NCBI GenBank assembly: GCA_000182565.2
Contig: KQ257461.1
Strand: one strand, 5' to 3'
DNA: 64,000 nt
From: Spizellomyces punctatus DAOM BR117
Lineage: Eukaryota
This document shows positions 12,507 to 53,289 of the stretch, piece by piece. A program made the position numbers and the translations under genes. Position 1 is the stretch's first letter. Each line of letters opens with the position of its first letter. Under the pieces are notes generated by a model, which was not told where the DNA came from, made no database searches, and saw only the letters and a program-made list of their open reading frames with translations.

Positions 12507-13043
12507 GTGTGAGAAAATAGCACTAGCCCGCGAAACCTGTTCACCTTAGTCACAGTACAGCAAGTTTCTTTGCCCAGACTCTGCCACGTACATGAAATGA
12601 GGTTCTGGGATACACGGTCTCACGCGATGATTATATGCAGATCCGCATCCAAAACACCCGTTCTTGTTCGGCCGCTGCAATAGGCAGCCGCTTCTCCTCC
12701 AACACTCACCCGCAAGTTAAAAAAACGAAAAGGTTAGAAAACCGTCCGAGCCTGAGTACCTGTCGAATTAAAGCTTGCAGGGGTGGGAAAGGACACCAAA
12801 GTGATCGCATTGTGCAAATGACGTGGTTTTCATGATTCCATACATGGTTAAATTGCCATGGGGCGCATGTGGCGAATTCGATCACCCTAACATGGGTCCT
12901 TGTTCACTCTCCTCCAAGTTGAGGCGAACTCAATCAGGGTCTGCAGACAAGAATCGCAGTATTTTAACATAATTATTGTGAATAACTGATTTCCTAAATA
13001 CGCTGCCGGTAGTCCTGACTACTTATTGTATTAGGTATTGAGA

Positions 13044-14820
13044 TTATGGAACGTGGTCTTTTGGACAGTCCACATCGACTCTCACTCCAACATAACTGGG
13101 AAACCTTGGGACGCCGTCTGGCGTCAACTCTTGGAACCGATAAGTAACAATTGCACCGACAGGAGGTGGATTGCGTCGTTCCTGATCGGACAAACCTGTG
13201 CCGATCTTGAAGAGCTTGCCTGATTCCATGATGCACTGGATCATAAAATAGATTGTACGTGAGTACCTGGAAAAGGGGCTGACAAAACCACTTCCCTCTA
13301 CCTTCAAAGCCCCGGTACTCCCTTTGTGTTTTCCTTTCCCAGGTTCATAACCGAGGACTTTAGCCTCGGCATCAAAAAACGTCTTTACCTTCAACAATGT
13401 AGCCGACCGTTTTCCTTCATAGAGACTGCCTGCTTTCCTCATCATCAGTCCTTCTCCACCTTGTGCTTCCACCTTTTTGAGCATGTCCATCAAATGTGCT
13501 CGATTATCGCATTTCACTTGTTCTACAATGCGCACAATCTTCTCTAGGGCGTTATGTTTTGAATTAACGTACGTTTTGATGGCGTCTATTCGTTCTTCAA
13601 ACGGCTTTTGATGGAGGCTGGGAGTATCAAAGACGTGAAAGAGAACACGCGACCATTGTTTCGAATTTATAGTTTTCACTACTGAAATGGTTTGGGTAAA
13701 CTGACCGCGACCGCAAAAGAGCTCGCCGTCCAAAGACATATCGTTTGGCAGGTCTTTAGGCAAATGTCATTGAACATATCGGCATACGCCAAGGCTATAT
13801 CAATTACACACCTTTTGTGAACCAATCCGGCGCTGTAAACGGATTGCCTAATCGGGAGACAAACGTCTTCTGCTGAGGATCCCAGAGAGCTCGAACGCCA
13901 TCCAGTTTTTCCGACAACCACCATCCAGTTGGATCAGGCCCTGAATTAGAGATATTAGAGTGCTGAAGACAATAGATGCTTCCACAATTGTTGTATACCG
14001 GTAGCAATATTCCAAGGATTAGCGAGCAGTAATTTAGGCGGAACCGCCTTGGTCTTTTTTCCGGGTGGTCCCACTCCACCGTCACCAGCACGTTTACGCT
14101 TTCCGGCTGAGGTACCAGTACTTGGACCTCCATTTGCACTATATCTTGCCAATTCGTACTCCTCGCCCAAGAGTTCTTTCAAGTGTTTACATGTCCTGGC
14201 TGGAGTAGTTTTAGCTTACGATATCCCGATAAGTGCTGGTTTGATGGAGACATGTACCACCATACCGTTAAGAGGCACGGCCCCCTGATTTCTCCAAGCC
14301 GGACAAGTGCCTAGCATAGCAAGTCCAGTTACGTGAGAACCGCGGTCAGGGTGAAACTACAACTCTGAGACTTACAGTAATAATGGTCCGCAGTCCGTTT
14401 TATGGTATAAGTTGCCGAGCTCGTTTTGCTTGACACCTCCGTGGTTTCACCATCTTGAAGGATTTTCAATGGGCGAATGCCATCTATGCACGCCAGCCCG
14501 TCCTCTGCAGGCAATTCCTCGATAAGATCCTCAGGGGCAGTATCGCCATCAAGAACGACCAGAGGCGCGTCGTCTTTGGCAATAGAAAGCTCATCTTGGT
14601 CGCTTTCCTCTTCTGTTTCTGATTCGACCAAGAAGTTCGGGGTTTTGGTGCGTTCGGGAGAAATGGCTGTCGTGGTTGAGAGTACCGTTTGACCTACGGA
14701 GGGATCAGCGTTGGAGTGGCCGTGTGGGTCGTGATTTTGGGGGTGCCGAAATTTGGCCAAGTGCTGGGGATTCTTCTGGTAGCAATTGTCCCAGTACTTG
14801 CATTTTGGTGTGATGTCCAT
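13044..14820 (-). CDS. ATP-dependent DNA ligase (minimal, bacterial/viral/kDNA-like type) with N-terminal PBZ and SWIM zinc fingers
   Basis: PBZ: CKYWDNCYQKNPQHLAKFRHP. Spliced SWIM: YYCTCPAW...RTCKHL. Ligase motifs: SEKLDGVRA (I), LDGEL (III), VFDT (IIIa), GEGLM (IV), LLKVK (V). OB domain with GTGLSD...PRFPSY. Confidence 0.92.
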
Positions 14821-20732: not shown

Positions 20733-21428
20733 TTAAGAAACCACTTTTCTAAATGTCAAATTAATTCTTTCCCCAACTTTCCGACTTGTTTTTGGAACGG
20801 CATGTTTCCAGTACTTTTGCATCATTCCTTTCATAATCACTAACGATCCATCAGCTAATACGAGTTCCAATTTGCCCGCCTCACGAGCTGGACCCCCCGG
20901 ATTGGGCTTTACAACAAACTTTCTCGAAGCGCCAAACGATACACTCGCAATAGTAGGTGCCGGTCCAAGCGATTTTTCATTATCGCTATGGAACCCAATG
21001 TAATCGCTCCCATTCCGATATAGATTGCACAATACGCTGTTAAATTTCTCTCCTACTACCTCCTCTACCTTCTCTTTAATCTCTTTGAGAGCATCGGGCC
21101 AGTCCGGGAGCATCGTACCCATTTTACCACTGCCGGAATATGCGTAATAGGTATTATTGTCGGCTATGAAACAGACTTGACGTGGTTGGTCAATCTGCCG
21201 ACCGAAAATAGTTATGGGTATCGTTTTCCAGGGGAGTACTGTGCGGAGAGACGTGAAAAGCGTGGGAGAGGCGGTGGGGGAAAAGAACGATGGGTAGTGA
21301 ATCAGGTGGCCAGTGGCATGTGACAGAGTGTATTGCATGGAAGCGGGTGTTATAGAGGGTGGAATGGTTCGAGGCCGCTTTGTGGTCGCATTGGTGTCAT
21401 TCGTCGTCGCTGACAATCGTTTCGGCAT
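20733..21428 (-). CDS. AlkB-family 2OG-Fe(II) dioxygenase (ALKBH2/3-like DNA dealkylase)
   Basis: Intronless ORF with QPR, YAYSG, NSVLCNLYRNGSDYIGFHSDNE, WKHAVPK and RINLTFR. Confidence 0.93.
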   Translation of the reverse strand: MPKRLSATTNDTNATTKRPRTIPPSITPASMQYTLSHATGHLIHYPSFFSPTASPTLFTSLRTVLPWKTIPITIFGRQIDQPRQVCFIADNNTYYAYSGSGKMGTMLPDWPDALKEIKEKVEEVVGEKFNSVLCNLYRNGSDYIGFHSDNEKSLGPAPTIASVSFGASRKFVVKPNPGGPAREAGKLELVLADGSLVIMKGMMQKYWKHAVPKTSRKVGERINLTFRKVVS

Positions 21429-21708
21429 TCGTTATCAAATCTGTGATCTCGAAAGCAGGTGAAATGCAAGTCCCATTCCTTGACTGCAACACGTGCTTTG
21501 CAATCGCTTACGACATCCAGTGAGGTTATTCTCCGATCGTGACCCAAAACCTTATTTTTGGCCGATATAATTCTACGGATTCTTCGAATCACGTTAACAA
21601 GTTATAGGGATACCGCGGTTTAATAGACAATCACTGCATGGCGTACGTTTGACATCGTCGCCAACATTTTATATCATCGTTTTACGTTGTGGGCACTCCA
21701 AGAATACA

Positions 21709-39903: not shown

Positions 39904-40613
39904 TACAATCATCCCATGTCCATTTATACTTATCTTTAGCCATGCATGCATGTATAGCATGTATGTGCATATGTCCAATGCGTACATGTCCATGTGTGTG
40001 TGTGTTAGTGTGATAAAGAAGGCAATCGATGACTCTATAAATCGATGTCCGCTTGAACGCTTGAACGCGTGTTTTTACTGCGCATTTCACACTTGTTGTA
40101 CATCCACACATCATATAGGATTTGGAACACTTCTAACGGATAAAGTGTTCAATTGCTCACGTTGTGGAAAAAAGGACAACTGATATTTATGCAAATACGA
40201 GTTTATTGTGTTTTTTATCCTTGTATCGATTGTAAAAGCCACAGGAACGATTCGGGATTGGATAGTTGGTTGTTCATGGGTTTATTAGTTGAACCCGACA
40301 CACAGTACAACAAAAGAATATAAAAAAGCTCTAGACCTTTTTGTTCCCCCAACTGTTTTTGTTTCTTGCTTTGGCGTAGTTGCTTCCTGTGTTTTCTTTC
40401 CTTGCAACTGTCTTTTGCTTGACGTTCAACTCGCTGTTTTGTTGGACAGCCATCTTTTTTAGATATTATATCTCTCATCCGCGGATATATGGATAGATAC
40501 CTTGTTTGATATTCTCTATTATACATTGGAAAGAGTGCCCGCATCCTAGACGCTACCGCTTGTAACGAACAGCTCTTCTCTTTTTTTTACATATTCCGAT
40601 CATCAAAAGCATC

Positions 40614-43600
40614 ATGTCGTCGCTGTCTACCTTTCACCCTCTCTCGATGGAAACAGCGGCTTCCGCTGCCGCTGCTGCTACAACGGCTGCAGGACATGCT
40701 ACTCGGCCGCTCGTCATGACACAGCACACCACCAAAGTCGCCATTCCCGTCCCGCTACCTCTCTGGCCTATTGCTGAAAACCTAAAGGAAACCTTTCCGA
40801 CTCGTGACGCTCCAGAAACAACCGAACTCGAGCTCTTGAGTGACATTCTTGAATTTGCACTTGGAAAGGCATCGAATCAGGATACCTTTGAGGCTCTGCC
40901 GCTTGTAGCTGTCATCTTTCGCCATCTACAGGCTCGTCTCTTGAAGCAAAATGACATTCATGCTGTCACCCGGGATCTGGCCCCAGAGACTCGCGCAGCT
41001 ATATTGAAAACATACTACCTCGCTCTCGTCGCTCTCAAACGTCACGGTTTGGTCTCTTCGGCAGAAATCAAACCTCCCGCATCCGCCTTGTTTGCGGCTG
41101 CAGAAGCGGGTCGCGCAAACCTCTTGGCCGTTTTCGGCGGACAGGGAAATGTCGAGGAATATTTCAGCGAACTCGTGTCCTTGTACACAACCTACGAGGC
41201 CTTTGCCCGGCCCTTTATCTACCAGGCGGCCCTCACCCTTGCAAACATTTCCAACTCCCCAGAAGCCCAGGCAGAGCATTCGGCTAAAATGGATGTGATT
41301 AGCTGGTTGGAAAAGCCAGAGACTCGTCCCAGTACCGAGAGTCTCTTGGCTACTCACCAGTCGCTCCCATTGATTGGATTGACGCAATTGACGAATTACT
41401 ACATCACGTTCAAAGTTCTCGACAAGACGCCTGGAGAGCTTCGGAGTCTTTTGGCTGGAACAACGGGTCACAGCCAAGGCATTGTTTCTTCGGTCGTTGT
41501 TTCGTCCTCAGAGACGGAAAAGGAATTTGTCGAAAATACGCAAAAGGCCCTAGTGCTCTTGTACTGGTTGGGATTGCGCTCCCAGCGGGCATGCCCTGCT
41601 ACGACCTTGGATCCCAACATTTTGCAGGATTCACTGGCCAACAATGAAGGAGTTCCTACGCCCATGTTGGCTGTGACGGGTATGTTTACATGTTTTGCCA
41701 CTATTAAAAAGTTACCTCGAAGAAAACCTCACACACTTCTCTCTGCAAGGTCTGCGCAACAGCGATGTCCAACAACACGCCGATACGACAAACTCTTTCC
41801 TTCCCCCGGACCGTCGGGTCCACCTCTCTCTCATCAACGGACCTCGCTCCACCATCTTTACCGGTCCCCCACAATCCCTGTACGGCCTCAACGTCTCTCT
41901 CCGCAAGCTCAAAGCCCAAACCGGCCAAGACCAATCCCGCATTCCCTTTTCGCAACGCAAAGTCCGGTTTTCATCCCGCTTTTTACCAGTCGCTGTCCCC
42001 TTTCACAGCGAATACCTCAAACACGTCCCCAACGCCCTTCAATCCGATATCGAATTGCACAACCTTGCATTTGATGCTAAAAAGATGCGGATACCCGTTT
42101 ATCATACCCATACCGGAGAGGACCTTCGTAACACGACGGATCTGACAATGTCCCTCGTCAACCAGATTTGCGTCCAACCCGTTCATTGGGAAAAAGCCAC
42201 CAACACCCAATCCATTTCCCATGTCCTTGATTTTGGACCAGGGGGTGCATCTGGGGTTGGATTCCTGACGCATCGTAACAAGGAGGGTACGGGTGTTCAG
42301 GTTGTGTTGGCGGGGTCGTTGGAGAGTGGAATGAGCGAGTTGTTGGATCGGTCGTATTTGTTTGATGAAGATGTTCATGCGGTAAAGTTTGCTCCTAATT
42401 GGGCCGAAAAGGTGAGCAGTCTGTCTGCCTTTGTGTGTGTGAGTTTTTATTAAATCCGGTCATTAGTACCGTCCCAAACTCATTCGCATCGCGAGTACCG
42501 GCGAAATTCACGTCGACACGCCTTTTAGCCGTCTCCTCGGCAAGGCCCCCCTCATGGTCGCCGGCATGACACCTTGCACCTCCAACGAACATTTTGTCGC
42601 AGCTTGCATCAATGCTGGTTTTCACGTTGAACTCGCGGGGGGTGGTCAACACACCGAACCCTACCTCCGCGACCGTGTCCAAAAGATCATGGAAAAAATT
42701 GAACCCGGTGAAGGCATTACTCTCAATATCCTCTTTCTCAACCCGCGTCTCTGGGGATTCCAGTACCCAGCCGTGCAAGCCATGCGGAGGGAGGGTATCC
42801 CCATGGAAGGCGTCTGCGTCGCAGCGGGTGTCCCATCCCTAGACGTTGCAGACCAAATCATTAAAAACCTCAAAGCAGCCGGACTCCGTCACGTTGCTTT
42901 CAAACCCGGGAGTGTCGAAACCATTCGTCGTGTCATTTCCATTGCAAGGACCAACCCCGATATGCCCATCATTCTGCAATGGACAGGAGGACGAGGGGGT
43001 GGACACCACTCTTTTGAAGATTTCCATCAACCCATGTTGGAGACCTATGGCGCCATTCGACGGGAACCCAACTTGATTTTGGTCGTTGGAAGCGGGTTTG
43101 GTGATGCCGTTGAGACATTACCTTACCTAACCGGTGAATGGAGTCAAAAGTTTGATCACCCACCCATGCCCTTTGATGGTCTTTTATTTGGCTCGCGTGT
43201 CATGGTCGCTAAAGAAGCCCTTACCTCTCCCGCTGTCAAGGAACTCATTGTCAAGGCACCAGGGATCCAAGATGAGACCCTCTGGGAACGTACTTACAAG
43301 GGCGACATTGGAGGGATCTTGACCGTGAAATCCGAATTGGGAGAACCCATCCACAAGATTGCCAACCGCGGCGTCAAATTCTGGAAAGAAATGGATGATA
43401 CCTTTTTTTCACTTTCCCGCGAAAAACGTCTACCAGCCCTCCTCAAAAAGAAGGACTACATTATCGAGCGTTTGAATGCTGATTTCCAGAAACCCTGGTT
43501 TGGCCAATCTGATGGTCGACCTTGCGATCTCCATGAAATGACGTACACTCAAGTCATTCGCCGATTGTTTGAGCTCTTGTGGGTTCCTTCCCGGTGGATT

Positions 43601-46600
43601 GATTCAACCCTCCGAGACACATTTGGTGATTTCTTGCGACGGGTTGAAGAACGATTCGTCAAGGGCGAAACCTTGTCCATGCTTCAATCGTATAGTACAC
43701 TCGATCACGACCCCGCATCCTTTATAGAAGCCTTTTTGGAAACCTTTCCGGAAGCCTCTCATCAAACCCTTACCCAAGAGGACGTGTTTTATTTCCTGAC
43801 GATTTGCTCGTACCCCTTTCGTAAACCCGTTCCGTTCATCCCCATCATTGACGAAAAGTTTGAGTTTTGGTTCAAAAAGGATTCGCTTTGGCAAGCTGAG
43901 GATGTTGATGCTGTTGTTGGGCGCGATGCAGGTCGAGTGGCCATTTTACAAGGGCCTGTTGCCGTCCGTCATTGCACAAAGGTTGATCAACCCGTCAAGG
44001 AAATCCTGGGAGATATTTACGCTGCCCACATTGATGCGCTACGTAAATTGTATTATGGTGACAGCAATGTCGCGATTCCTGTTGTAGAGTACTTGGGTGC
44101 CCGACCAGCTCCCCCCACTCACACCCTCGATGGCATCCGTGTCACAGAACTCAACGAAGGATCCATCATGTACGAAATCACTCGTAACGCCCAAGCCATG
44201 CCCTCCACTCCCGACTTTATGCAATTCATCTCGGGACCGGATCATACCTGGCTTCGAGCCCTCCTTACCTCGGAAGCCATCGTCCAAGGTAAACACCTGG
44301 TCCCAAACCCAGTCACAAAGATCCTCCGCGCCCGTCCTGCGCAGACCTTGTTTGTGAAATATGATGCGAGACGTCAACCAGTGCTTTTGACGCTGCATGA
44401 TCGGGATGTGGATCGTATTACTCCTGATCGACACCCGGCGGTGGTCATAACTGCTGAAGGAGATCGTATCAAAGTCGAATTGTTTGTCAAACGGGACAAG
44501 GAGTTTGTGGCATTAGAGTTGTTGTTCCGGTACAAGCCTTGGCAAGGTCATAATCCCATTCATGAGATTATGGAGGTATGTGTTCTATTGGTCTGTTTAC
44601 ATTAGTGCAAGTGTATCTAATCTCGGGTATCATTTATAGGGCCGTAACCAGCGCATCAAGGATTTCTACAGCAAGCTCTGGCATGTTGATCCCTCCGATT
44701 CCCATCTAACACCCAAAGACACGTTCCGATCCGTCTACAAGGTCCAATCCACCAGCGTACTCGATTTCGCTCAAGTGATTGGCAATCAGGCGGAACTGTA
44801 CGTGACTGGCAAGGACCCCAACACACCCGCTCCCATGGACTTTGCCATCGTGGCTGGATGGCGATCTCTTGTTTCCGCCATCCTCCCCAAGGAAATCGAT
44901 GGGGATCTCCTCCGACTCGTTCATCTTTCCAACCAGTTCCGTATGTTGGATCCCCATGATACTCTTCGTGCCGGGGACGAAATCACTACGGAAGCCGTGA
45001 TCGAGTCCGTGATTATTACTGAAGCCGGCAAAGCTGTTGAAGTCAAGGCGACGCTCATCAAGAACCAACGGCCACTCATGGAGATTGTGAGCACGTTTTT
45101 GTATCGGGGTACTTTTACTGATTATGAAAACACCTTTCGGCGAACGACTGAAAAGCCTGTGCAGGTGGTCTTGTCGTCCAACAAGGATATCCAAGTCCTT
45201 CAATCCAAAACATGGATTAAATGGAATACGGATGCCCCACAGTTGACACCAGGAGCTATTTTGATTTTCAGATTGGAGACTTTTGCCCAAAATGCCGATG
45301 CGACTGTCTATGCCCATGTCCAGACGACTGGATCAGTGTTTTTGAAAACGACACGGGAAACGATTCAAGTTGGTCGTGTTGATTATCATGCTACCCATGT
45401 CCACGGCAATATTGTACTGGACTACCTTACCCGCCACGGCTCCTCCATTGAACAACCCGTTTTCTTCAAATCGGGGGGATACTCTATCCTTCCTGACCCC
45501 AAAGTCTTTCCTGCGACCGTCACCGTCCCACTTTCCAACGGTGCCTACGCCGTAGCATCCGGGGATTTGAATCCAATCCATACCAACCCTTACTTTGCTG
45601 ACCTGGCCAACCTTCCCGGAACCATTACTCACGGCATGTGGACATCGGCTTCTACACGCAAATTCGTTGAAATCTTTGCGGCCAATAATCGACCTGAGCG
45701 GGTCAAAGAATACAATGTCGTGTTCCTGAACATGGTTCTCCCTGGCGACCAACTTGAAACCAAATTATACCACGTTGGTATGAGTAACGGCAAGAAACTC
45801 ATCAAGGTCATTACCCTCAACTCAAAGGGCGTCAAAGTCCTTGAAGGAAGTGCCGAAGTCGAACAACCCGCTACTTCCTACGTGTTTACTGGACAAGGAT
45901 CCCAAGAAGTCGGCATGGGAATGGATCTATACGAAACCTCTGCGATTGCCAGAGAAATCTGGGACAGAGCCGACGCACACATGCTCCAAACTTACGGTGT
46001 CTCCATCCTCTCCATCGTCCGAACAAACCCCACATCCCAAACAATCCACTTTGGTGGACAAAAAGGTGCATCCATTCGTCGGAATTTCATGTCCATGACG
46101 TATGATGTTGTTCAAGATGGGTTGTTGAAGAGTTTACCTCTCTTCCCCGGTATCACGGACCAAACGCCTTCCTATACGTTTTCGCATCCGAATGGGTTAC
46201 TCTCTGCCACGCAGTTTACTCAACCCGCGCTCACCTTGATGGAAATTGCGTCGTTTCAGGATATGAGAGCTAATGGACTCGTGCAGCAGGATTGTCCCTT
46301 TGCTGGACACAGGTATGTTGGTTAGAGAATAAGACGTCCACAAGCGCTGCTTGTTTAATGTTTTTTTTGTTGTCTAGTTTGGGCGAATACGCTGGACTCG
46401 CATCCGTTGGACAGGTCCTTTCAGTCGAATCCCTCGTCGACGTTGTCTTTTACCGTGGCATGACCATGCAAGTCGCCGTCCAACGCGATGACCAAGGACG
46501 ATCCAATTACGGCATGTGTGCCGTGAATCCCATCCGGGTTGGATCAACCTTTTCCGAGCAAGCCCTCGTGTTCATTGTAGAAGCCATTGCACGCCGCTCG

Positions 46601-49600
46601 GGTGATTTATTGGAGATTGTGAATTACAATGTAGAGAATTTCCAGTACGTCCTAGCGGGTGAATTGACCAACCTCGAGACTCTCCGAGTGGTCTTGAATA
46701 AGGTCAAGGGGTTAAATGTCAATTTCATTGAATTGGGGAAAACGAAATCGGTGGAAGAGATTCAAGGGGTTTTGGATGGGATTGTCGAAGATGGGTTAGC
46801 ATCTGCTCGCAAGAAACGTGCTGCATCGAACGGAATTCTCTCTCAAGAACGCGGGGTTGCGACTATTCCCCTCGCAGGCATCGACGTCCCCTTCCACTCT
46901 AGTTTCCTCTTGAACGGCGTCGTCCCCTTCCGCGAAATCCTTCGCAAAAAACTAGAAGCAAAATTCATCAACGTGGCCCTCCTCGTTGGGAAATACATTC
47001 CAAATTTAACAGCCGAACCCTTTAGTCTCTCCAAAGACTACTTTCAAACCGTCTACGACCTCACCCACTCGTCCCTCCTTCAGCAAGTCCTATCCGATTG
47101 GGACGAAACCCTAAACACCACAGCGGCCCAACAACAACAACTGGGATACATCCTCCTCATTGAACTCTTGGCCCATCAATTCGCGAGTCCCGTTCGCTGG
47201 ATCGAAACCCAAGATCAATTGTTCCGGGCCTTCAAAGTGGAAAGGTTGATTGAAGTGGGACCTTCACCCGTTCTTTGCAGTATGGCCGGACGAACACTTA
47301 AAATCAAATACGAGGCATATGATGATGCTGTTACGCATCGTCGTGTGCAATTGTGTACCACCAAGGATCGTAAAGAGATTTACTATGATTTTAGAGATGA
47401 GGTTGTGGATGTCGTCGAAGAGGATAAGGCGGCTGTGGAGCAAGTGCCAGTCAAGAGTGCGGCTCCTGCGCCGGTGGTACCTGCTCCAGCTGCTAGGACC
47501 GCCGCTGCTGTGACGTGAGTGGTTTTGTTATTATTGTTGTTTTTAATCTTTGTTGTTGGTGTTGTGAGTCTTATTACTCACTCTTGTTTTGTTCTAGTGA
47601 TGAACCGATCACAGCTCAAGAAATCCTCTTGGTGCTCATTGCTCAAAAACTCAAAAAACCCCTCTCTGACGTCCCACTCTCAAAATGCATCAAAGATCTC
47701 GTGGGTGGCAAGTCTACCCTCCAGAATGAGATCCTCGGAGATCTTGCCGCAGAATTTGGCAACGTTCTCGCTGATAAGGCGGAGGAGCTCCCTCTTTCTG
47801 AGGTCTCAATGGCACTCCAGGATGCACATGGAGGCGCTTTGGGCAAGACCAGTAATGGACTGGTGAACAAGATGGTCGGATCAAAGATGCCGGGTGGGTT
47901 TGGTATGGGACAGGTCAAGGCGTACCTTACTAGTGCCTATGGGTTGGGACCCAAGAGAAGTCAGGGCGTGCTGTTGCATGGGTTGCTATCGGAACCTGCG
48001 TCACGGTTGGCTAACGAGACGGATGCAAAGGCGTGGATTGACACTGTCGTCAAGAGTTATGCCGATAAAGTGGGTATAACCCTCGGTGGAACAACGGAAG
48101 GTCCATCTCAAACTTCGGGCACGGTCGTAACCATTGATAGCAAAGAATTTGATAAACACAAACTAGCCCTCGACCTCCTCGTCCGACAGCAACTTGAAAC
48201 ATTTGCTAAATACCTTGACTTGGACCTCCTCGCCGAAGCCCGTACAGCTGCTACCGAACGCGACGCCCGCGACGCCCTCCAAGCCCAACTCGACCATTGG
48301 ATCGCTGAACACGGTGACGTTTATGCCGAGGGGATTAAACCCTCTTTTGATCGTCTCAAAGCCCGAGTATTCGATTCCCATTGGAACTGGGCAAGACAGG
48401 ATGCACTCCAACTCTACTATGACATGATCTTTGGTCGTATCTCGAGCGTTGATAGGGAATTGATGAACCAGTGTATTCATTTGATGAACCGCGCTGAAGA
48501 TGCAGAGAGTTTGGTCACTTTTATGGAATATTACCTGGAGAATTGCCCAGAGGCTCGTGGAGAAAACTTTGTGCGCGCCAAGGCTCTTAGCAAGATTTTG
48601 TTGGAGAATTGTAGGGAGGCTCTCAAAGCCGATCCTGTATACAAAAACCGTAAGTTTCCGTGTGTTAATGGTAAAATGTGGGAATGCGAAACTCACCGTC
48701 TTGTTTTGCACAGTGGCCTACCGCCCAACCCGTCCTAAAACCCACATCAAAGAAAATGGCGAACTGGTCTACAATGAAGAGCGCCGTAAAGCAAGCAACA
48801 TGAAGGACTATGTTGAGGAAATGCGCGCAGGAAGTGACCTGACACGGATCCCCGATAGTCAAATCCTGGTTTCCAAATTCGAGCAACTGGCTGCGTTAAT
48901 GAAATCAGCACCAGAACTGAATGGAGCGACGAAATCCCAAGTGGATGCCATCTTTGCCGAGATTCAACAGAATCTGCCTCCACGGTCTGGATTCCAGGGT
49001 CGTCTCCCGTTCGTGTTCCTCAAGCGACGAAATCCTGTGGATCCCAGTCAATGGGAACCAGATGCGGATCTGAGCACAATTTACCTCGATACTTTGGCCA
49101 AAATGGCTAACGAGGGAATATCCTTCAAGGGTCGACACGCATTGATTACAGGGTGCGGAAAGGAGTCGATTGGCGTGGATGTCCTCAAGGCTCTCCTTTC
49201 GGGTGGTGCCAGGGTCATTGTGACAACCTCCCGATTCAGCAAATCCTCTACAGAATTCTACCGCTCCATCTACGAACGCCATGGCTCAAAAGGTTCCCGT
49301 CTCGTCGTGGTCCCCTTTAACGGCGCATCCTTCCAAGACACAGTTGCCCTCGTCGAATACATTTACGATACAAAAGGGGGTCTGGGATGGGATTTGGACT
49401 TTATCATCCCTTTTGCGGCTATCCCTGAACAAGGCCGCGAAATCGACGGGATTGATTCTAAATCTGAGTTGGCGCATCGTATCATGCTCACCAATTTGTT
49501 GAGATTGATGGGACAAGTCAAGGCTAAGAAACAGGTCATGAAGTACGATACGCGGCCTGCAGTGGTTGTTTTGCCATTGTCGCCTAATCATGGTACATTT

Positions 49601-52600
49601 GGGAATGGTAATTTCTTGTGACTACTAAATCAGTCGTAAGATGGATATTGATTGAATTGAACCTATTGTTGTAGATGGGTTGTACAGTGAATCGAAAATC
49701 GGACTTGAGACATTGTTCAACAGGTTCCATTCTGAGAGTTGGAGCAGCTATCTGACCATTGTTGGTGCCGTCATTGGGTAAGCTTACTACTCTGCAAGCT
49801 GCTGACCATTCTGCACCGTCACTCACTTACTCTACTTTTCAGATGGACCCGCGGCACGGGTCTCATGTCCGCCAACAACATTGTTGCTGAAGGCATAGAA
49901 TGGCTTGGAGCTCGCACCTTCTCCACCCACGAGATGGCCTTCAACCTCATTGGTCTCCTCCATCCAGATATTGTCAAACTATCCGGGGTAGACCCCATCT
50001 GGGCGGACCTGAACGGTGGTCTACACTTTGTTGCAGACTTGAACCGGATTTCATCCCAGTTGCGTCGTGACTTATTGGAAACATCCGAGATTCGCCGGGC
50101 GGTGGCTCGAGAAGCCGCCATTGATCGTCAGGTCATGAATGGCCCCGTTAAACATGAACAAGTTCTCGTGACCCCTCGTGCGAATATGAAGTTCAAGTTC
50201 CCAAGCTTGGATGCGCAAAAGTTGACCCATTTGCGCGGAATGTTGGATCTGGAGAAAGTTGTTGTCGTGACTGGCTTTGGAGAGGTGGGGCCATTTGGAG
50301 GGTCTCGTACTCGTTGGGAGTTGGTAAGTGCCAGCATCTTCATCAGTTTATCAAACACAATTCTGAACCATAATCTTCTTTTATAGGAGGCTTACGGCGA
50401 GTTGTCCCTCGAAGGATCAATTGAGATGGCTTGGATGATGGGATTCATCAAATTCCATACCGGCCCGCTAAAGAAGCTCGCAACCTATTCTGGTTGGATT
50501 GACGCTCAGACGCAGGAACCTGTCAAAGATCACGAAGTGAAAGCAAAATACGAGAAAAAGATCTTGGAGCATAGTGGTATTCGATTGATTGGTATGCATT
50601 GTACAATACCCTTGGGGGCCTTTTACGCCGTGAAATAACCAGGCTCCCTTCAATAGAACCCGCTCTCTTTAATGGTTACGACCCAGAAAAGAAAATGTTC
50701 CTCCAAGAGATTGCTGTTACATCCGACATGGCACCCATTGAAGTCAGTAAGGAAGAAGCTGAAGCCATGAAACGACAACATGGTGCCGCTGCCGTGGTCG
50801 AGCAACGGGGCGAACAATACTTTGTTCGCTTGCAAAAGGGTGCGACCTTGTATGTTCCCAAAGCTTTGCGATTCGATCGTCTTGTAGCTGGACAGGTACG
50901 ACAATGGGCTACAGCCTAAAGCAGAACATGTTCAAAGTTTACTCATTGGGATGGTTTCTTGAAACTAGATTCCTACTGGATGGGATGCAAAGCGGTACGG
51001 AGTGCCAGATGATATTGTCTCACAGGTGGATCCGATCACGCTCTATACATTGGTGTCCACTGTGGAAGCACTGGTCACTTCGGGGGTTACTGACCCGTAC
51101 GAGTTTTACCAATATGTCCATGTGAGCGAAGTTGGCAACACGTCTGGTGGTGGTATGGGCGGTATGCGTGCCATGCAGAGGATCTTTAGGGTAAGTTCGT
51201 CCTAATGGGTGGGATTTTGAAACAGACCGGGTTTTGATGAATCTTCTTTCGTATAGGAACGTTTCCTGGAGAAGCCGGTGCAAGCGGATATTCTTCAAGA
51301 AAGTTTCATCAACACCATGCCCGCTTGGATCAACATGTTACTCCTCTCCTCATCAGGGCCGATCAAAACGCCCGTAGGAGCTTGCGCAACGGCAGCAGAA
51401 TCCGTCGAAGTCGCCGTCGACACCATTCTCTCTGGTAAAGCCAAAGTGGTTCTTTGCGGTGGATATGACGACTTCCAAGAAGAAGGATCCCATGAATTCG
51501 CCAACATGAGGGCCACGTCCAATTCTGTTGAAGAATTTGCTCGAGGTCGTGAACCCCGGGACATGTGCCGTCCTGCAACGGACACTCGAGCAGGATTCAT
51601 GGAAGCTCAAGGTGCTGGTATCCAGGTCCTCATGACCGCTGATCTAGCCATCAAGATGGGTGTACCTATTCGGGGTATCATTGCTTGTACCAATACCGCT
51701 ACTGACAAGAATGGACGATCGGTTCCCGCACCTGGTCAGGGTATCTTAACCACCGCCCGTGAAGCTCCCGGAAAGCACCGCTCGCCACTTTTGAACTTTG
51801 AATACCGTGCTAAACAGCTGCGGAGGGAGCGAGAACACATCAAACAATGGGTTGCAAAAGAGTATGAAGCATTGGCTGACGAAGTTGAGGAAATTAAAAA
51901 GAGCGGCGAGGAAGTCGATCAGGACTTTGTCAACGAGCGAACAGCCTTTATTGAGAAAGAAGGAAAACGTAGAGAAAACGTTGCTTTGTCCACATGGAGT
52001 CATGATTGGTGGAAGAATGATCCAGCGATTTCACCCCTCCGCGGGGCTCTTGCCACCTTTGGTTTAACCATTGACGACATTGGTGAGTCGTGTCAGGACG
52101 ATAAACTTCGTATTGGATGTAAAAAGCTTACACTCTGTCAATGATCATAGGTGTCGCTTCCTTCCACGGAACAGGCACAAAAGCCAACGACTACAACGAA
52201 TCCTCTGCCCTCAACCAGCAATTAACACATCTCGGTCGTAGCCGTGGCAATCTCATCCCTGCCGTCTTCCAAAAGCACCTGACTGGCCATCCCAAGGGTG
52301 CAGCCGCGGCATGGATGCTCAACGGTGTACTCCAAGTCCTCGAAACGGGCATCGTTCCCGGCAATAGAAACTTGGACAATGTAGAGGACCGCCTCCGTCA
52401 ATTCAAATACATTCTCTATCCCAGTCGATCCATCAAAACCGACGGTATCCGGGCCGGTTTATTGAAAAGTTTTGGATTCGGACAGGCTGGTGGTGAAATC
52501 CTGGTCATCCACCCCGACTACCTCTTCGCGGCGCTAGAGGAACCAGAGTTCAATGACTACCTTGCCCGTAGACAAAAGCGCGAGACAGCATCGTACCGCT

Positions 52601-53289
52601 ACTTCCACGAGATGCTAACGGGTGCTGCACCGTTTGTCCGTGTCAAATCAGCTGCGCCCTACACAAATGAACAGCAGTCGGGAGTCTACTTGAACCCGCT
52701 TTCCCGTGCTGCATATGACAAGTCTTCTGGGTCTTGGAACTTTAATGCTCAAAGTAAAGCGCTTGCCAAGCCCGATGTGTCGGTGACCAAAGCTTTGATC
52801 GAGGCATCAGCGCAGTTGGGCGAAGCTGCCAATGGACGTGGACTTGGCATAGGTAATTGCCTTGAATGTATTTGATGTTCGGCATATCGATCACATTTCT
52901 CATTTGTCTCTCCTATGTATCACCCAGATGTTCAATTGTGCTCTGAAGTCCCGGCAGACAACGAAACATTCCTTGCTCGTAACTTTACTGAGCAAGAGCG
53001 CGCATACTGTTCCAATGGCAGCTGTCCTCAGTCCAGCTTTGCGGGTCGGTGGGCAGCCAAAGAAGCGGTCATTAAGGCTGTCAGCAGCGCTGCAGGAACC
53101 GTGGTATGGACCAAGGGCGCAGGAGCTCCCCTGAATGAGATTGAAGTTCTTCGAGAGGATGGCATGGCTCCTGTTGTCGTCTTCCATGGTGAGGCCAAAG
53201 ACGCCGTGGAGAAAGCGGGCGTCAAGGAAGTCAAGGTGACCATTAGTCATAGTGGCTCGTATGCTGTGGCCATGGCGGTCACCCAGTAA
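40614..53289 (+). CDS. FAS: Single-chain fungal type I fatty acid synthase (AT-ER-DH-MPT-ACP-KR-KS-PPT), multi-exon
   Basis: [24 protein letters not shown]...THGMW. MPT: FAGHSLGEY...[61 protein letters not shown]...ISHS. Confidence 0.97.

What the first reader, a model, noticed from the sequence alone, without database searches (positions are those of the whole stretch)
13044..14820. PAR-binding (PBZ) + SWIM finger fused to a minimal bacterial/viral-type DNA ligase
Seen: an N-terminal PBZ motif, an acidic linker, a SWIM finger, an NLS-like KRKR/KKTK and a compact adenylation+OB ligase lacking the DBD of LIG1/3/4. The gene has spliceosomal introns, so it is a resident gene. Known: PBZ fingers (APLF, CHFR) bind poly(ADP-ribose), and animals recruit LIG3 to PARP-marked breaks through XRCC1. 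Inference: a single-protein, PARP-guided nick-sealing enzyme that may stand in for XRCC1-LIG3 in this lineage, possibly built on a horizontally acquired ligase.
Basis: partly seen in the sequence, partly recalled or inferred. Interest (0 to 1): 0.72.

Follow-up and report, generated by a model that had tools for sequence, protein, structure and literature searches.

The report
Chytrid PBZ–SWIM–LigE DNA repair ligase

Summary
Window 13044-14820 (minus strand) is a six-exon, five-intron gene. Its 487-aa product equals SPPG_06617 of Spizellomyces punctatus. Pfam finds a PBZ finger, an ATP-ligase adenylation domain and the Lig E-type OB domain, and no LIG1/3/4-type DNA-binding domain. The closest solved structures are bacterial Lig E enzymes. 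The "SWIM" part is a conserved CxCx15CxH module, but it fails Pfam's SWIM model and matches no solved fold.

The kind is known. Eukaryotic ligase E with PBZ fingers was described in bdelloid rotifers and Mortierella (PMC10665377). The window gene lies in a different, unstudied subgroup with N-terminal PBZ plus SWIM. That subgroup also occurs in other early fungi, hemichordates, a choanoflagellate and Amoebozoa. Its nearest bacterial relatives are SWIM-LigE-WGR proteins of Myxococcota and Planctomycetota. Relatives are fused to PBZ, WWE, macro, WGR, BRCT and PolX domains. This points to PAR-linked strand-break repair.

Not shown here: cDNA splicing, PAR binding, a PARP in this genome, or replacement of XRCC1-LIG3. 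The gene is old in fungi, not a recent transfer. Interest is moderate.

The parts
13044..14820 (-). Whole CDS of SPPG_06617 (487 aa). Six exons: 14820-14376, 14310-14266, 14199-13999, 13940-13812, 13753-13302, 13235-13044. Stop codon TAA at 13046-13044.
   Evidence: sequence and frames; the scripted splice is identical to P0001; database protein of 487 aa.
14737..14808 (-). PBZ (poly-ADP-ribose-binding C2H2 zinc finger), residues 5-28. Motif: C7-x5-C13-x6-H20-x5-H26.
   Evidence: Pfam PF10283, E 1.6e-11, above the cut-off. Aligns to both APLF PBZ fingers. pLDDT 82-90.
14473..14628 (-). Acidic, disordered linker, residues 65-116 (19 D/E of 52).
   Evidence: composition; pLDDT below 50 for most of residues 33-95.
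14132..14472 (-). SWIM-like zinc module, residues 117-186 (three strands then helices; C149, C151, C167, H169). It spans exons 1-3 and introns 1-2. The Cys149 codon is split by intron 1 (T at 14376, GC at 14310-14309).
   Evidence: splice phases. (conservation; 38-46% identity to the bacterial modules). (pLDDT 93-97 in the full model, 87.5 alone). UniRef name 'SWIM-type domain'. Against: no Pfam SWIM match and no PDB fold match.
14311..14375 (-). Intron 1 (65 nt, GTAAGT...CTAG).
14200..14265 (-). Intron 2 (66 nt, GT..AG).
14042..14131 (-). Basic linker, residues 187-216, with KRKR...KKTK (7 K/R of 30). Possible bipartite nuclear localisation signal.
   Evidence: composition; pLDDT 57-61. The NLS function is inferred, not tested.
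13941..13998 (-). Intron 3 (58 nt, GT..AG).
13383..14041 (-). Adenylation (nucleotidyltransferase) domain, residues 217-397. It includes introns 3 and 4.
   Evidence: Pfam PF01068, E 5e-14. Invariant E241 K242 D244 G245 R247, R260, D282 G283 E284, D316, G375, K395 in 129 aligned homologues.
13906..13908 (-). Codon AAA of Lys242, the predicted AMP-accepting lysine in motif I (SEKLDG).
   Evidence: sequence; invariant; aligned to the same motif of Lig E 4d05.
13754..13811 (-). Intron 4 (58 nt, GT..AG).
13080..13343 (-). Lig E/Chlorella-virus-type OB domain, residues 411-476. It includes intron 5 (13236-13301, 66 nt).
   Evidence: Pfam PF14743, E 4e-29. (intron).

Best explanation
The gene encodes a nuclear, ATP-dependent DNA nick- and break-sealing ligase of the Lig E family.

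Shown here: the core (residues 217-487) has every catalytic motif and the Lig E fold.

Inferred mechanism:
- Lys242 is adenylated by ATP. AMP is passed to the 5' phosphate of a nick, and the 3' OH attacks to close the strand.
- Three modules sit ahead of the core on flexible linkers. The first is an N-terminal PBZ finger. It would tether the enzyme to poly(ADP-ribose) made by a damage-activated PARP at strand breaks.
- The second is an acidic disordered spacer.
- The third is a SWIM-like zinc module that has travelled with this ligase core since before the split between the bacterial (Myxococcota/Planctomycetota) and eukaryotic members. It most likely supplies the extra DNA or nick contact that the missing DNA-binding domain gives in LIG1/3/4.
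- A basic stretch probably acts as a nuclear localisation signal.

The enzyme is best seen as an accessory single-strand-break or base-excision-repair ligase that reads the PAR signal itself. It is a member of an old eukaryotic subfamily, not a chytrid invention.
For: Gene model and identity.

Domains.

Catalytic residues are invariant in 129 homologues.

Closest solved proteins are Lig E enzymes. By sequence: 4d05 E 6e-60, 8u6x 2e-58, 6gdr 3e-48, against Chlorella virus ligase 2e-13. By fold: 6gdr, the DNA-bound form, TM 0.91 on the target, rmsd 2.1 A. AlphaFold mean pLDDT is 85.5, with the core at 94-99.

The PBZ finger aligns to both APLF fingers with the Cys/His ligands and both tyrosines kept.

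Domain fusions. I scanned 142 of the 150 best library representatives found with this protein. Of these, 27 carry PBZ, 22 BRCT, 18 WGR, 2 WWE, 1 a macro domain and 4 DNA polymerase beta/lambda-type domains. These are PAR readers, a PARP break-sensor domain and a gap-filling polymerase.

Precedent. Rotifer AvLigE-B, a LigE with PBZ, is radiation-induced and nuclear, and its depletion lowers nick sealing 1.6-fold (PMC10665377, passages and sections 7 and 9 read). A chytrid PARP1 (B. dendrobatidis) is active and is stimulated by 5'-phosphorylated nicks and gaps (PMC13507078, passages).

PBZ and the ligase are linked. PBZ and the first half of the SWIM-like module lie in one exon. The four zinc ligands are spread over exons 1-3, with one Cys codon split by intron 1. 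PBZ can therefore hardly be a separate gene. Orthologues annotated independently have the same layout.

The SWIM-like module is 38-46% identical between fungus and bacteria.
Against: - No ligation, PAR-binding or localisation data exist for this protein or for any SWIM-bearing member.
- Whether S. punctatus has a PARP could not be checked. No genome was held, and no paper was found.
- RNA support is thin. 12 reads were laid from about 6% of one RNA run, mostly over the 3' exons, and no splice joint was listed.
- The finger departs from APLF at two positions. YG becomes YW, as in 13 of 74 PBZ motifs in the stored set. YRKNP becomes YQKNP, as in 5 of 74. This could change PAR affinity.
- The SWIM assignment rests on the motif, a source's name and an Atlas lead at scores 0.88-0.89. 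Pfam SWIM does not match. A profile of the module finds no PDB sequence. The fold searches give nothing: Foldseek best E 0.95, VIA best Z 2.4.
- The DNA-binding role of the module is pure inference.
- Basidiomycete orthologues carry SWIM but no PBZ. PAR reading is therefore not essential to the subfamily.
Confidence: 0.6

Rival explanations
1. One reading: this single protein replaces the XRCC1-LIG3 pair in a lineage that lacks them, and is the main single-strand-break ligase.
For: The protein combines a PAR reader with a ligase. In animals that job is split between XRCC1 and LIG3 (established knowledge). No LIG3-type domains are in this protein. Relatives fused to BRCT, or to a PolX polymerase, look like condensed XRCC1-type assemblies.
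Against: Presence or absence of LIG1, LIG3, LIG4 and XRCC1 in S. punctatus was not testable. Bdelloid rotifers keep ligases 1, 3 and 4 beside LigE (PMC10665377, sections 7 and 9). Hemichordates carry the same N-terminal PBZ-SWIM-LigE layout. That animals as a group have LIG3 and XRCC1 is my recollection. Dictyostelium has both LIG3 and XRCC1, and its LIG3 carries a macrodomain (PMC8529158, passages). Coexistence is therefore common.
Confidence: 0.15
2. The ligase is active, but the PBZ finger is not a PAR reader here. It would be a diverged finger binding DNA, another nucleic acid or a protein, or a relic. Recruitment would depend on the SWIM-like module or on other partners.
For: There are G-to-W and R-to-Q changes relative to the APLF fingers. 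Basidiomycete and bacterial members work without PBZ. A 2026 review states that no PBZ domain has been identified in Fungi, so no fungal PBZ has been tested (PMC13720257, passage).
Against: The Pfam score is twice the cut-off. The zinc ligands and both tyrosines that align with APLF's are kept. The YW variant recurs in chytrids and in a hemichordate, so it is under selection. Fusion of the same ligase family to WWE and macro domains points to the PAR signal specifically.
Confidence: 0.17
3. It is a recent horizontal acquisition, a contaminant or a mis-joined gene model. PBZ would belong to a different gene from the ligase.
For: The catalytic core is bacterial-type. The nearest non-eukaryotic relatives are Myxococcota and Planctomycetota proteins. 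RNA reads did not show the splice joints.
Against: There are five GT-AG introns of 58-66 nt. GC matches the window. The neighbours are HSP70, RasGAP, FAS and a tRNA synthetase. The gene sits in a chytrid clade of 10 rows (95/87). The same layout is annotated independently in Gaertneriomyces and other chytrids. A zinc-ligand codon is split by intron 1, and PBZ shares exon 1 with the SWIM-like strands.
Confidence: 0.03
4. The enzyme acts on RNA, or on DNA ends in another compartment such as the mitochondrion, as kinetoplastid ligase K does, rather than in nuclear break repair.
For: Some homologues give weak Pfam RNA_ligase matches, for example P0010 at E 7.7e-6, below the cut-off. Ligase K of kinetoplastids is related to ligase E (PMC10665377, section 7).
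Against: P0001 itself has no RNA_ligase match even at E<=10. The N-terminus is a zinc finger, not a presequence. A basic NLS-like stretch is present. The fusion partners are nuclear DNA-damage modules.
Confidence: 0.05

Closest known systems
AvLigE-A/B of bdelloid rotifers and MvLigE of Mortierella verticillata (eukaryotic DNA ligase E with PBZ fingers; Nicolas et al. 2023, PMC10665377)
   Same: Same Lig E-type core (PF01068 + PF14743). It is fused to PBZ fingers and is a resident, intron-bearing eukaryotic gene. The proposed role, damage-site recruitment of a ligase, is the same. The paper's text also mentions three animals with N-terminal PBZ.
   Different: In those proteins PBZ is C-terminal, flanked by PST repeats, and there is no SWIM-like module. 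In my stored set, 33 of the 34 SWIM-less PBZ proteins have PBZ C-terminal. All 28 SWIM-bearing PBZ proteins have it N-terminal, and 0 have SWIM with a C-terminal PBZ (n = 379). On the tree the two types fall in separate groups: 8 rows at 84/93 and 28 rows at 89/91. Neither 'SWIM' nor 'Spizellomyces' occurs in the paper. No experiments exist on the SWIM type.
Bacterial Lig E (Psychromonas 4d05, Alteromonas 6gdr, Neisseria gonorrhoeae 8u6x)
   Same: About 40-42% identity over the whole two-domain core. It has the same minimal scaffold without a DNA-binding domain or latch, and the same fold.
   Different: Canonical Lig E has a signal peptide and works in the periplasm, in competence and biofilm (search listing; PMC8455567, passages). 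The window protein instead has 216 N-terminal residues of PBZ, linker, SWIM-like module and basic stretch, and is eukaryotic.
Leaderless SWIM-LigE-WGR ligases of Myxococcota and Planctomycetota
   Same: They share the SWIM-like module (38-46% identity, same CxC...CxH) directly ahead of the same core. PMC8455567 had already noted that leaderless Myxococcales Lig E sequences group with a few fungal ones (passage read).
   Different: The bacterial proteins carry one or more C-terminal WGR domains and no PBZ. 0 of 5 such genomes gave a PARP catalytic match, and the control genomes were silent too. Their neighbours are unrelated bacterial genes.
LIG3-XRCC1 of animals (and Dictyostelium LIG3 with a macrodomain)
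   Same: Functional analogy only: a ligase brought to PARP-marked breaks. Dictyostelium LIG3 is itself fused to an ADP-ribose-binding macrodomain (PMC8529158, passage).
   Different: There is no PARP-type zinc finger, no DNA-binding domain, no PF04679-type OB and no BRCT in the window protein. LIG3 is a distant structural match only: 3l2p Foldseek E 2e-12 against 5e-30 for Lig E.
APLF / CHFR PBZ fingers
   Same: Same C2H2 spacing and the CxY...CY.KNP.H....F.H signature.
   Different: Here there is a single finger rather than the tandem pair of APLF. It has W for G and Q for R at two consensus positions, and it is attached to an enzyme rather than a scaffold.

Membership tests
Lig E-type minimal ATP-dependent DNA ligase | Two-domain core: PF01068 adenylation domain plus PF14743 OB domain, with no LIG1/3/4-type DNA-binding domain. 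| tested here: met
   PF01068 E 5e-14 and PF14743 E 4e-29. No other ligase domain was found, even at E<=10.
Lig E-type minimal ATP-dependent DNA ligase | Nucleotidyltransferase motifs with the catalytic lysine (KxDG) and motifs III, IIIa, IV and V. | tested here: met
   E241 K242 D244 G245, D282 G283 E284, D316, G375 and K395 are invariant in 129 homologues. K397 is in at least 90%.
Lig E-type minimal ATP-dependent DNA ligase | Closer to solved Lig E enzymes than to any other ligase class. | tested here: met
   4d05 E 6e-60, against Chlorella virus ligase at 2e-13. Lig E entries rank 1-4, and 6gdr has TM 0.91.
Lig E-type minimal ATP-dependent DNA ligase | N-terminal leader peptide for periplasmic export (canonical bacterial Lig E). 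| tested here: not met
   The N-terminus is a PBZ zinc finger. No signal-peptide predictor was run. Leaderless members are already known (PMC8455567, passage).
[quoted passage not shown] | Profile match above the curated cut-off, with the C-x5-C-x6-H-x5-H ligand spacing. | tested here: met
   44.4 bits against a cut-off of 22.7; ligands and spacing.
[quoted passage not shown] | Binds poly(ADP-ribose). | not testable with these tools
   This needs a PAR-binding assay. The tyrosines aligned with APLF's are kept. Their role in adenine stacking is my recollection.
SWIM zinc finger (PF04434 / PROSITE SWIM-type) | CxCxnCxH signature after a short beta sheet and before a helix. | tested here: met
   C149, C151, C167 and H169. 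The model has three strands followed by helices.
SWIM zinc finger (PF04434 / PROSITE SWIM-type) | Match to the Pfam SWIM profile at its cut-off. | tested here: not met
   no match for P0001 at E<=10. 1 of 7 members (P0068) reached E 0.87, 9.6 bits against a cut-off of 19.6. UniRef names the protein 'SWIM-type domain'; that this name comes from the PROSITE rule is my recollection.
SWIM zinc finger (PF04434 / PROSITE SWIM-type) | Fold like a solved SWIM domain. | tested here: inconclusive
   no PDB sequence hit at E<=10, Foldseek best E 0.95, VIA best Z 2.4. The Atlas's nearest named clusters are small phage proteins partly carrying PF04434, at scores 0.88-0.89, which is a lead only.
AvLigE/MvLigE-type PBZ ligase E (PMC10665377) | Lig E core fused to PBZ in a eukaryotic nuclear gene. 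| tested here: met
AvLigE/MvLigE-type PBZ ligase E (PMC10665377) | C-terminal PBZ, no N-terminal extension, and the same clade as the rotifer and Mortierella proteins. | tested here: not met
   rotifer and Mortierellaceae proteins have the catalytic K at position 28-32, and PBZ, where my pattern found one (6 of 8), lies after the core; the two types fall in separate groups (84/93 and 89/91).
AvLigE/MvLigE-type PBZ ligase E (PMC10665377) | Radiation-induced and nuclear. | not tested
   No expression data under damage were available. RNA reads were sparse.
LIG3 (with XRCC1) | PARP-like zinc finger, DNA-binding domain, PF04679 OB domain and C-terminal BRCT. | tested here: not met
   none of these domains is present.

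The most novel reading that the evidence does not exclude
PBZ-SWIM-LigE may be an ancient ligase of the fungal, animal and amoebozoan stem, possibly older, that reads poly(ADP-ribose) directly.

Its SWIM-like zinc module would be a previously unrecognised nick- or DNA-clamping element. It would replace the DNA-binding domain of LIG1/3/4 and would be shared with WGR-bearing ligases of Myxococcota and Planctomycetota.

In early-diverging fungi this protein would be the first identified reader of the PAR signal.

PBZ would have been joined to Lig E cores at least twice independently: N-terminally with SWIM, and C-terminally without it.
Probability: 0.35. Interest if true: 0.65.

Novelty: new variant of a known kind. 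Interest (0 to 1): 0.48.

Why it matters
Ligases that carry their own PAR reader are a compact alternative to the scaffold-based XRCC1-LIG3 arrangement of animals. So far one type, from rotifers, has been studied.

This gene represents a second, wider and older type that nobody has tested. It offers three things.

1. A concrete candidate for how the PAR signal is read in fungi that have DNA-dependent PARPs. This holds at least for chytrids and Mucoromycota.

2. A conserved zinc module of unknown role, attached to the smallest known ligase scaffold.

3. A set of natural fusions (PBZ, WWE, macro, WGR, BRCT, PolX) that together point to this ligase family working in strand-break repair.

From memory, not checked here: S. 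punctatus can be transformed, so the predictions should be testable. The gene itself is already in databases with automatic domain labels, so the gain is interpretive rather than a discovery of new sequence.

Tried and rejected
- RNA evidence. No RNA holder was listed for the stretch. Laying RNA run X7 gave 12 reads, 7 of them only partly on the stretch, and no joint reached the listing threshold. RNA run X8 gave 0 reads, and X1 is a colinear genomic contig. Splicing is therefore neither shown nor refuted.
- Own genome. None is held, so PARP, PARG, LIG1/3/4 and XRCC1 could not be searched.
- Papers on Spizellomyces and PARP. Searches for Spizellomyces with PARP or ADP-ribos found 5 and 3 papers, none bearing on the point (PMC8021618 and PMC12220480 checked by passages).
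- PBZ-only word search (residues 1-40). It returned only the query itself, which is uninformative.
- Pfam SWIM at E<=10: see the membership test.
- Searches with the SWIM-like module. The profile against PDB sequences gave 0 hits. Foldseek gave a best E of 0.95. VIA wide gave a best Z of 2.4.
- Docking of the module on the core. The complex-prediction job (core 217-487 with module 112-186) was never accepted because the queue was full. It never ran, so it gave no result either way.
- Bacterial neighbourhoods of 4 SWIM-LigE-WGR loci show no conserved partner.
- PARP catalytic domain in 5 such bacterial genomes: 0 of 5. The 14 control genomes were silent as well, so this is not evidence of absence.
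- Deep phylogeny. Eukaryotes and bacteria are not reciprocally monophyletic and the basal nodes are open. I therefore reject any statement on donor or direction.
- Literature on a SWIM-ligase fusion. PBZ + DNA ligase + SWIM found 0 papers. SWIM + ATP-dependent DNA ligase found 9 papers, none relevant by title or abstract. 'ligase E' + PBZ found 17 papers, and of the 12 listed only PMC10665377 is relevant by title and abstract. Supplementary tables and Fig. 2 of PMC10665377 were not seen; they may already draw this architecture.
Full report
OBSERVATION. The stretch 13044-14820 is a protein-coding gene on the minus strand. Reading the frames gives six exons: 14820-14376, 14310-14266, 14199-13999, 13940-13812, 13753-13302 and 13235-13044. 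They are separated by five GT..AG introns of 65, 66, 58, 58 and 66 nt. A script that joins these exons gives 1464 nt and 487 codons. The product is identical to a database protein found with exon 5 alone: P0001, 'uncharacterized protein SPPG_06617 [Spizellomyces punctatus DAOM BR117]', which UniRef names 'SWIM-type domain'.

DOMAINS. Pfam finds three domains on the spliced protein:
- PBZ (PF10283), residues 5-28, E 1.6e-11, 44.4 bits against a cut-off of 22.7.
- DNA_ligase_A_M, residues 235-397, E 5e-14.
- DNA_ligase_OB_2, residues 411-476, E 4e-29.

No LIG1/3/4-type DNA-binding domain was found, even at E<=10. The PBZ exon aligns to both fingers of human APLF (2kqb, E 4.5e-12). The four zinc ligands and the CxY and CY tyrosines are kept, while W replaces G and Q replaces R at two consensus positions. 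Those variants occur in 13 and 5 of the 74 PBZ motifs in my stored set. A hemichordate finger reads almost the same, CKYWDNC.

Residues 65-116 hold 19 acidic residues of 52, and residues 187-216 hold 7 basic residues of 30 (KRKR...KKTK).

Between these two linkers lies C149-x-C151-x15-C167-x-H169. This is the SWIM signature, but Pfam's SWIM model does not match P0001. Only 1 of 7 members tried matched, at E 0.87.

The zinc ligands are spread over exons 1, 2 and 3, and the Cys149 codon is split by intron 1. PBZ lies in the same exon as the strands of this module. The PBZ and ligase parts can therefore hardly be separate genes, although cDNA proof is missing.

RESIDENT GENE. CDS GC is 0.494 against 0.484 for the window. 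The neighbours are a protein kinase, HSP70, an AlkB-like oxygenase, RasGAP, an M16 peptidase, an aldehyde dehydrogenase, a long fatty-acid synthase, a class I tRNA synthetase and MRP-L46.

RNA evidence is weak. No RNA holder was listed. Laying one RNA run of the same species label, about 6% of it read, gave 12 reads, mostly over 12954-13492, and no joint reached the listing threshold.

FAMILY. By sequence the closest solved proteins are bacterial Lig E enzymes: 4d05 E 6e-60, 8u6x 2e-58 and 6gdr 3e-48. Chlorella virus ligase follows at 2e-13.

An AlphaFold model built on 129 homologues has mean pLDDT 85.5. By region:
- PBZ: 82-90.
- Residues 33-95: mostly below 50.
- SWIM-like module: 93-97.
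- Core: 94-99.

Foldseek ranks Lig E entries first. The DNA-bound 6gdr superposes with TM 0.91 on the target at 2.1 A. All catalytic motif residues, including K242, are invariant in the 129-row alignment.

A search of the whole 1.84-billion-protein library gives 15,510 hits at E<=1e-3 and 1,199 at E<=1e-30.

I scanned 142 of the 150 best representatives in Pfam; the other 8 already had ids. The fusion partners at E<=1e-4 were:
- PBZ: 27.
- BRCT: 22.
- WGR: 18.
- WWE: 2.
- Macro domain: 1.
- DNA polymerase beta/lambda-type palm and thumb: 4.
- HHH_8 alone: 1.

These are the three classical PAR or ADP-ribose reader folds, the break-sensing domain of PARPs, and the gap-filling polymerase of base excision repair. 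As a set of natural fusions they argue for strand-break repair linked to ADP-ribosylation.

Named examples:
- Salpingoeca rosetta: two PBZ, SWIM, LigE.
- Capsaspora owczarzaki.
- Pelomyxa.
- The hemichordates Saccoglossus and Glandiceps: PBZ, SWIM, LigE.
- Cymbomonas: WWE, BRCT, SWIM, LigE.
- A diatom: WWE, U-box, BRCT, SWIM, LigE.

TWO PBZ ARCHITECTURES. The stored set holds 379 proteins. It is biased, being the best hits to P0001 and P0227. In it:
- 251 have a CxC...CxH motif within 200 residues upstream of the catalytic lysine.
- 28 of those also have an N-terminal PBZ, and 0 have a C-terminal one.
- 33 SWIM-less proteins have a C-terminal PBZ, and 1 has an N-terminal one.

The C-terminal type includes bdelloid rotifers, Mortierellaceae, dinoflagellates and Balamuthia.

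A careful tree was built from 51 named cores. All unnamed rows and the two long branches L013 and L015 were left out, and Rhodocyclaceae Lig E served as outgroup. It gives:
- A 10-row chytrid clade holding the window protein, support 95/87.
- A 28-row group of four fungal phyla, hemichordates, Salpingoeca and two Amoebozoa, 89/91.
- A 10-row group of SWIM-LigE(-WGR) proteins from Myxococcota, Planctomycetota and two bacterial MAG proteins (P0082, P0103), 89/93.
- An 8-row SWIM-less group, 7 of 8 with a C-terminal PBZ (Pfam or pattern), 84/93.

Capsaspora and the two algal rows are unresolved. Earlier trees agree in outline and show that the deep nodes are weak. I conclude that the gene is old in fungi, that PBZ was probably joined to Lig E cores twice, and that the direction of any bacterium-eukaryote transfer is open.

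THE SWIM-LIKE MODULE. The module is 38-46% identical between the chytrid and the bacterial proteins. Thirteen columns are invariant in 12 sequences. It is found full-length in MAGs of Polyangiaceae, Kofleriaceae (contig of 3.68 Mb), Planctomycetia and Gemmata, and in Archangium. There it sits among ordinary, unrelated bacterial genes.

Modelled alone it reaches pLDDT 87.5: three strands, a short helix, then two helices after the CxH. It matches nothing solved:
- Profile against PDB sequences: 0 hits at E<=10.
- Foldseek: best E 0.95.
- VIA wide: best Z 2.4.

The Atlas's nearest named clusters, with ligase families excluded, are small phage proteins partly carrying PF04434, at scores 0.88-0.89. 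That is a lead only. I therefore call it 'SWIM-like'. The signature is met, the Pfam profile is not, and the fold test is inconclusive. Its role as an added DNA or nick contact is my inference. It rests on its fixed place 42-171 residues (median 67) ahead of the catalytic lysine and on the lack of any other DNA-binding element.

WHAT IS KNOWN.
- Nicolas et al. 2023 (PMC10665377; outline, sections 7 and 9 and passages read) described eukaryotic ligase E. In bdelloids and Mortierella it has C-terminal PBZ fingers. It is radiation-induced and nuclear, it accounts for about 35% of nick sealing in irradiated rotifer extracts, and it is radioprotective in human cells. They state that PBZ is absent from most other eukaryotic ligases E, apart from Thecamonas, Mortierella and three animals with N-terminal PBZ. 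'SWIM' and 'Spizellomyces' do not occur in the text.
- Pan et al. 2021 (PMC8455567, passages) noted that leaderless Myxococcales Lig E sequences group with a few fungal sequences 'of unknown function'.
- A 2026 review of fungal ADP-ribosylation (PMC13720257, passage) says no WWE or PBZ domain has been identified in Fungi and that the readers are unknown. The chytrid and Mucoromycota proteins here carry PF10283. The Mortierella case was already in print.
- PMC13507078 (passages) shows that a chytrid PARP1 is active on nicked and gapped DNA.
- Dictyostelium LIG3 carries a macrodomain (PMC8529158, passage).
My results agree with that.

MECHANISM AND LIMITS.
- Shown: gene structure, domain content, catalytic residues, Lig E fold, family distribution and fusions.
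- Inferred: ATP-dependent nick sealing through Lys242, PAR-dependent recruitment through PBZ, nuclear import through the basic linker, and DNA contact by the SWIM-like module.
- Not testable here: whether S. punctatus has PARP, PARG, LIG3 or XRCC1. The 'stand-in for XRCC1-LIG3' idea therefore remains a hypothesis. It is weakened because ligase E coexists with ligases 1, 3 and 4 in bdelloids, and because the same layout occurs in hemichordates.
- The docking job for the module and the core could not be run.

VERDICT. This is a new, unstudied variant (N-terminal PBZ plus SWIM-like module) of a known kind (PBZ-bearing eukaryotic ligase E). It is widespread and ancient rather than a chytrid speciality. 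Interest is moderate, 0.48.

Noticed in passing
window 20733-21431 (-): An open frame with a strong 2OG-Fe(II) oxygenase (AlkB-like, PF13532) match, E 1e-32. This is a possible alkylation-damage repair enzyme about 6 kb from the ligase. No link between the two is shown.
   Followed up: no
window 40566-52875 (+): A run of open frames on one strand holds the domains of both fungal fatty-acid synthase subunits: FAS_N, SAT, the Fas1 helical domain, MaoC, acyl transferase, ACP, FAS_I_H and ketoacyl synthase. It looks like a single fused FAS gene with introns.
   Followed up: no
window 10917-12545 (-): A 542-aa open frame next to the ligase gene is rich in Pro and Ser and has no Pfam match at E<=1e-5. 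Its function is unknown.
   Followed up: no
L006, L008, L009, L002, L007 (loci): Myxococcota and Planctomycetota genomes encode SWIM-LigE-WGR ligases among unrelated genes. 0 of 5 of these genomes gave a PARP catalytic-domain match, and the control genomes were silent too. The WGR domain there may therefore sense breaks without any PARP.
   Followed up: partly
L007:4670-5968 (+): A reverse-transcriptase (RVT_1) open frame lies directly upstream of the ligase gene in a Kofleriaceae genome.
   Followed up: no
proteins P0154, P0155, P0191, P0250 (one search hits): These are natural fusions of a complete PolX (beta/lambda-type) polymerase with the Lig E core. The polymerase is N-terminal in three and C-terminal in one. 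That would be gap filling and sealing in a single polypeptide. They come from unnamed metagenome sequences.
   Followed up: partly
proteins P0168 (Cymbomonas), P0202 (diatom), P0242 (metagenome): Lig E cores are fused to WWE (with BRCT, and once with a U-box) or to a macro domain. Together with PBZ, that makes all three classical ADP-ribose reader folds attached to this ligase family.
   Followed up: partly
proteins P0001 (chytrid) and P0371 (Saccoglossus): The N-terminal PBZ fingers share the unusual signature PKCKYWDNC, with W in place of the consensus G. This suggests one origin for the N-terminal PBZ-SWIM-LigE layout in fungi and animals.
   Followed up: partly
one search hit list: About 50 Basidiomycota orthologues carry the SWIM-like module but none carries PBZ. 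No Ascomycota protein appears among the 120 listed hits.
   Followed up: no
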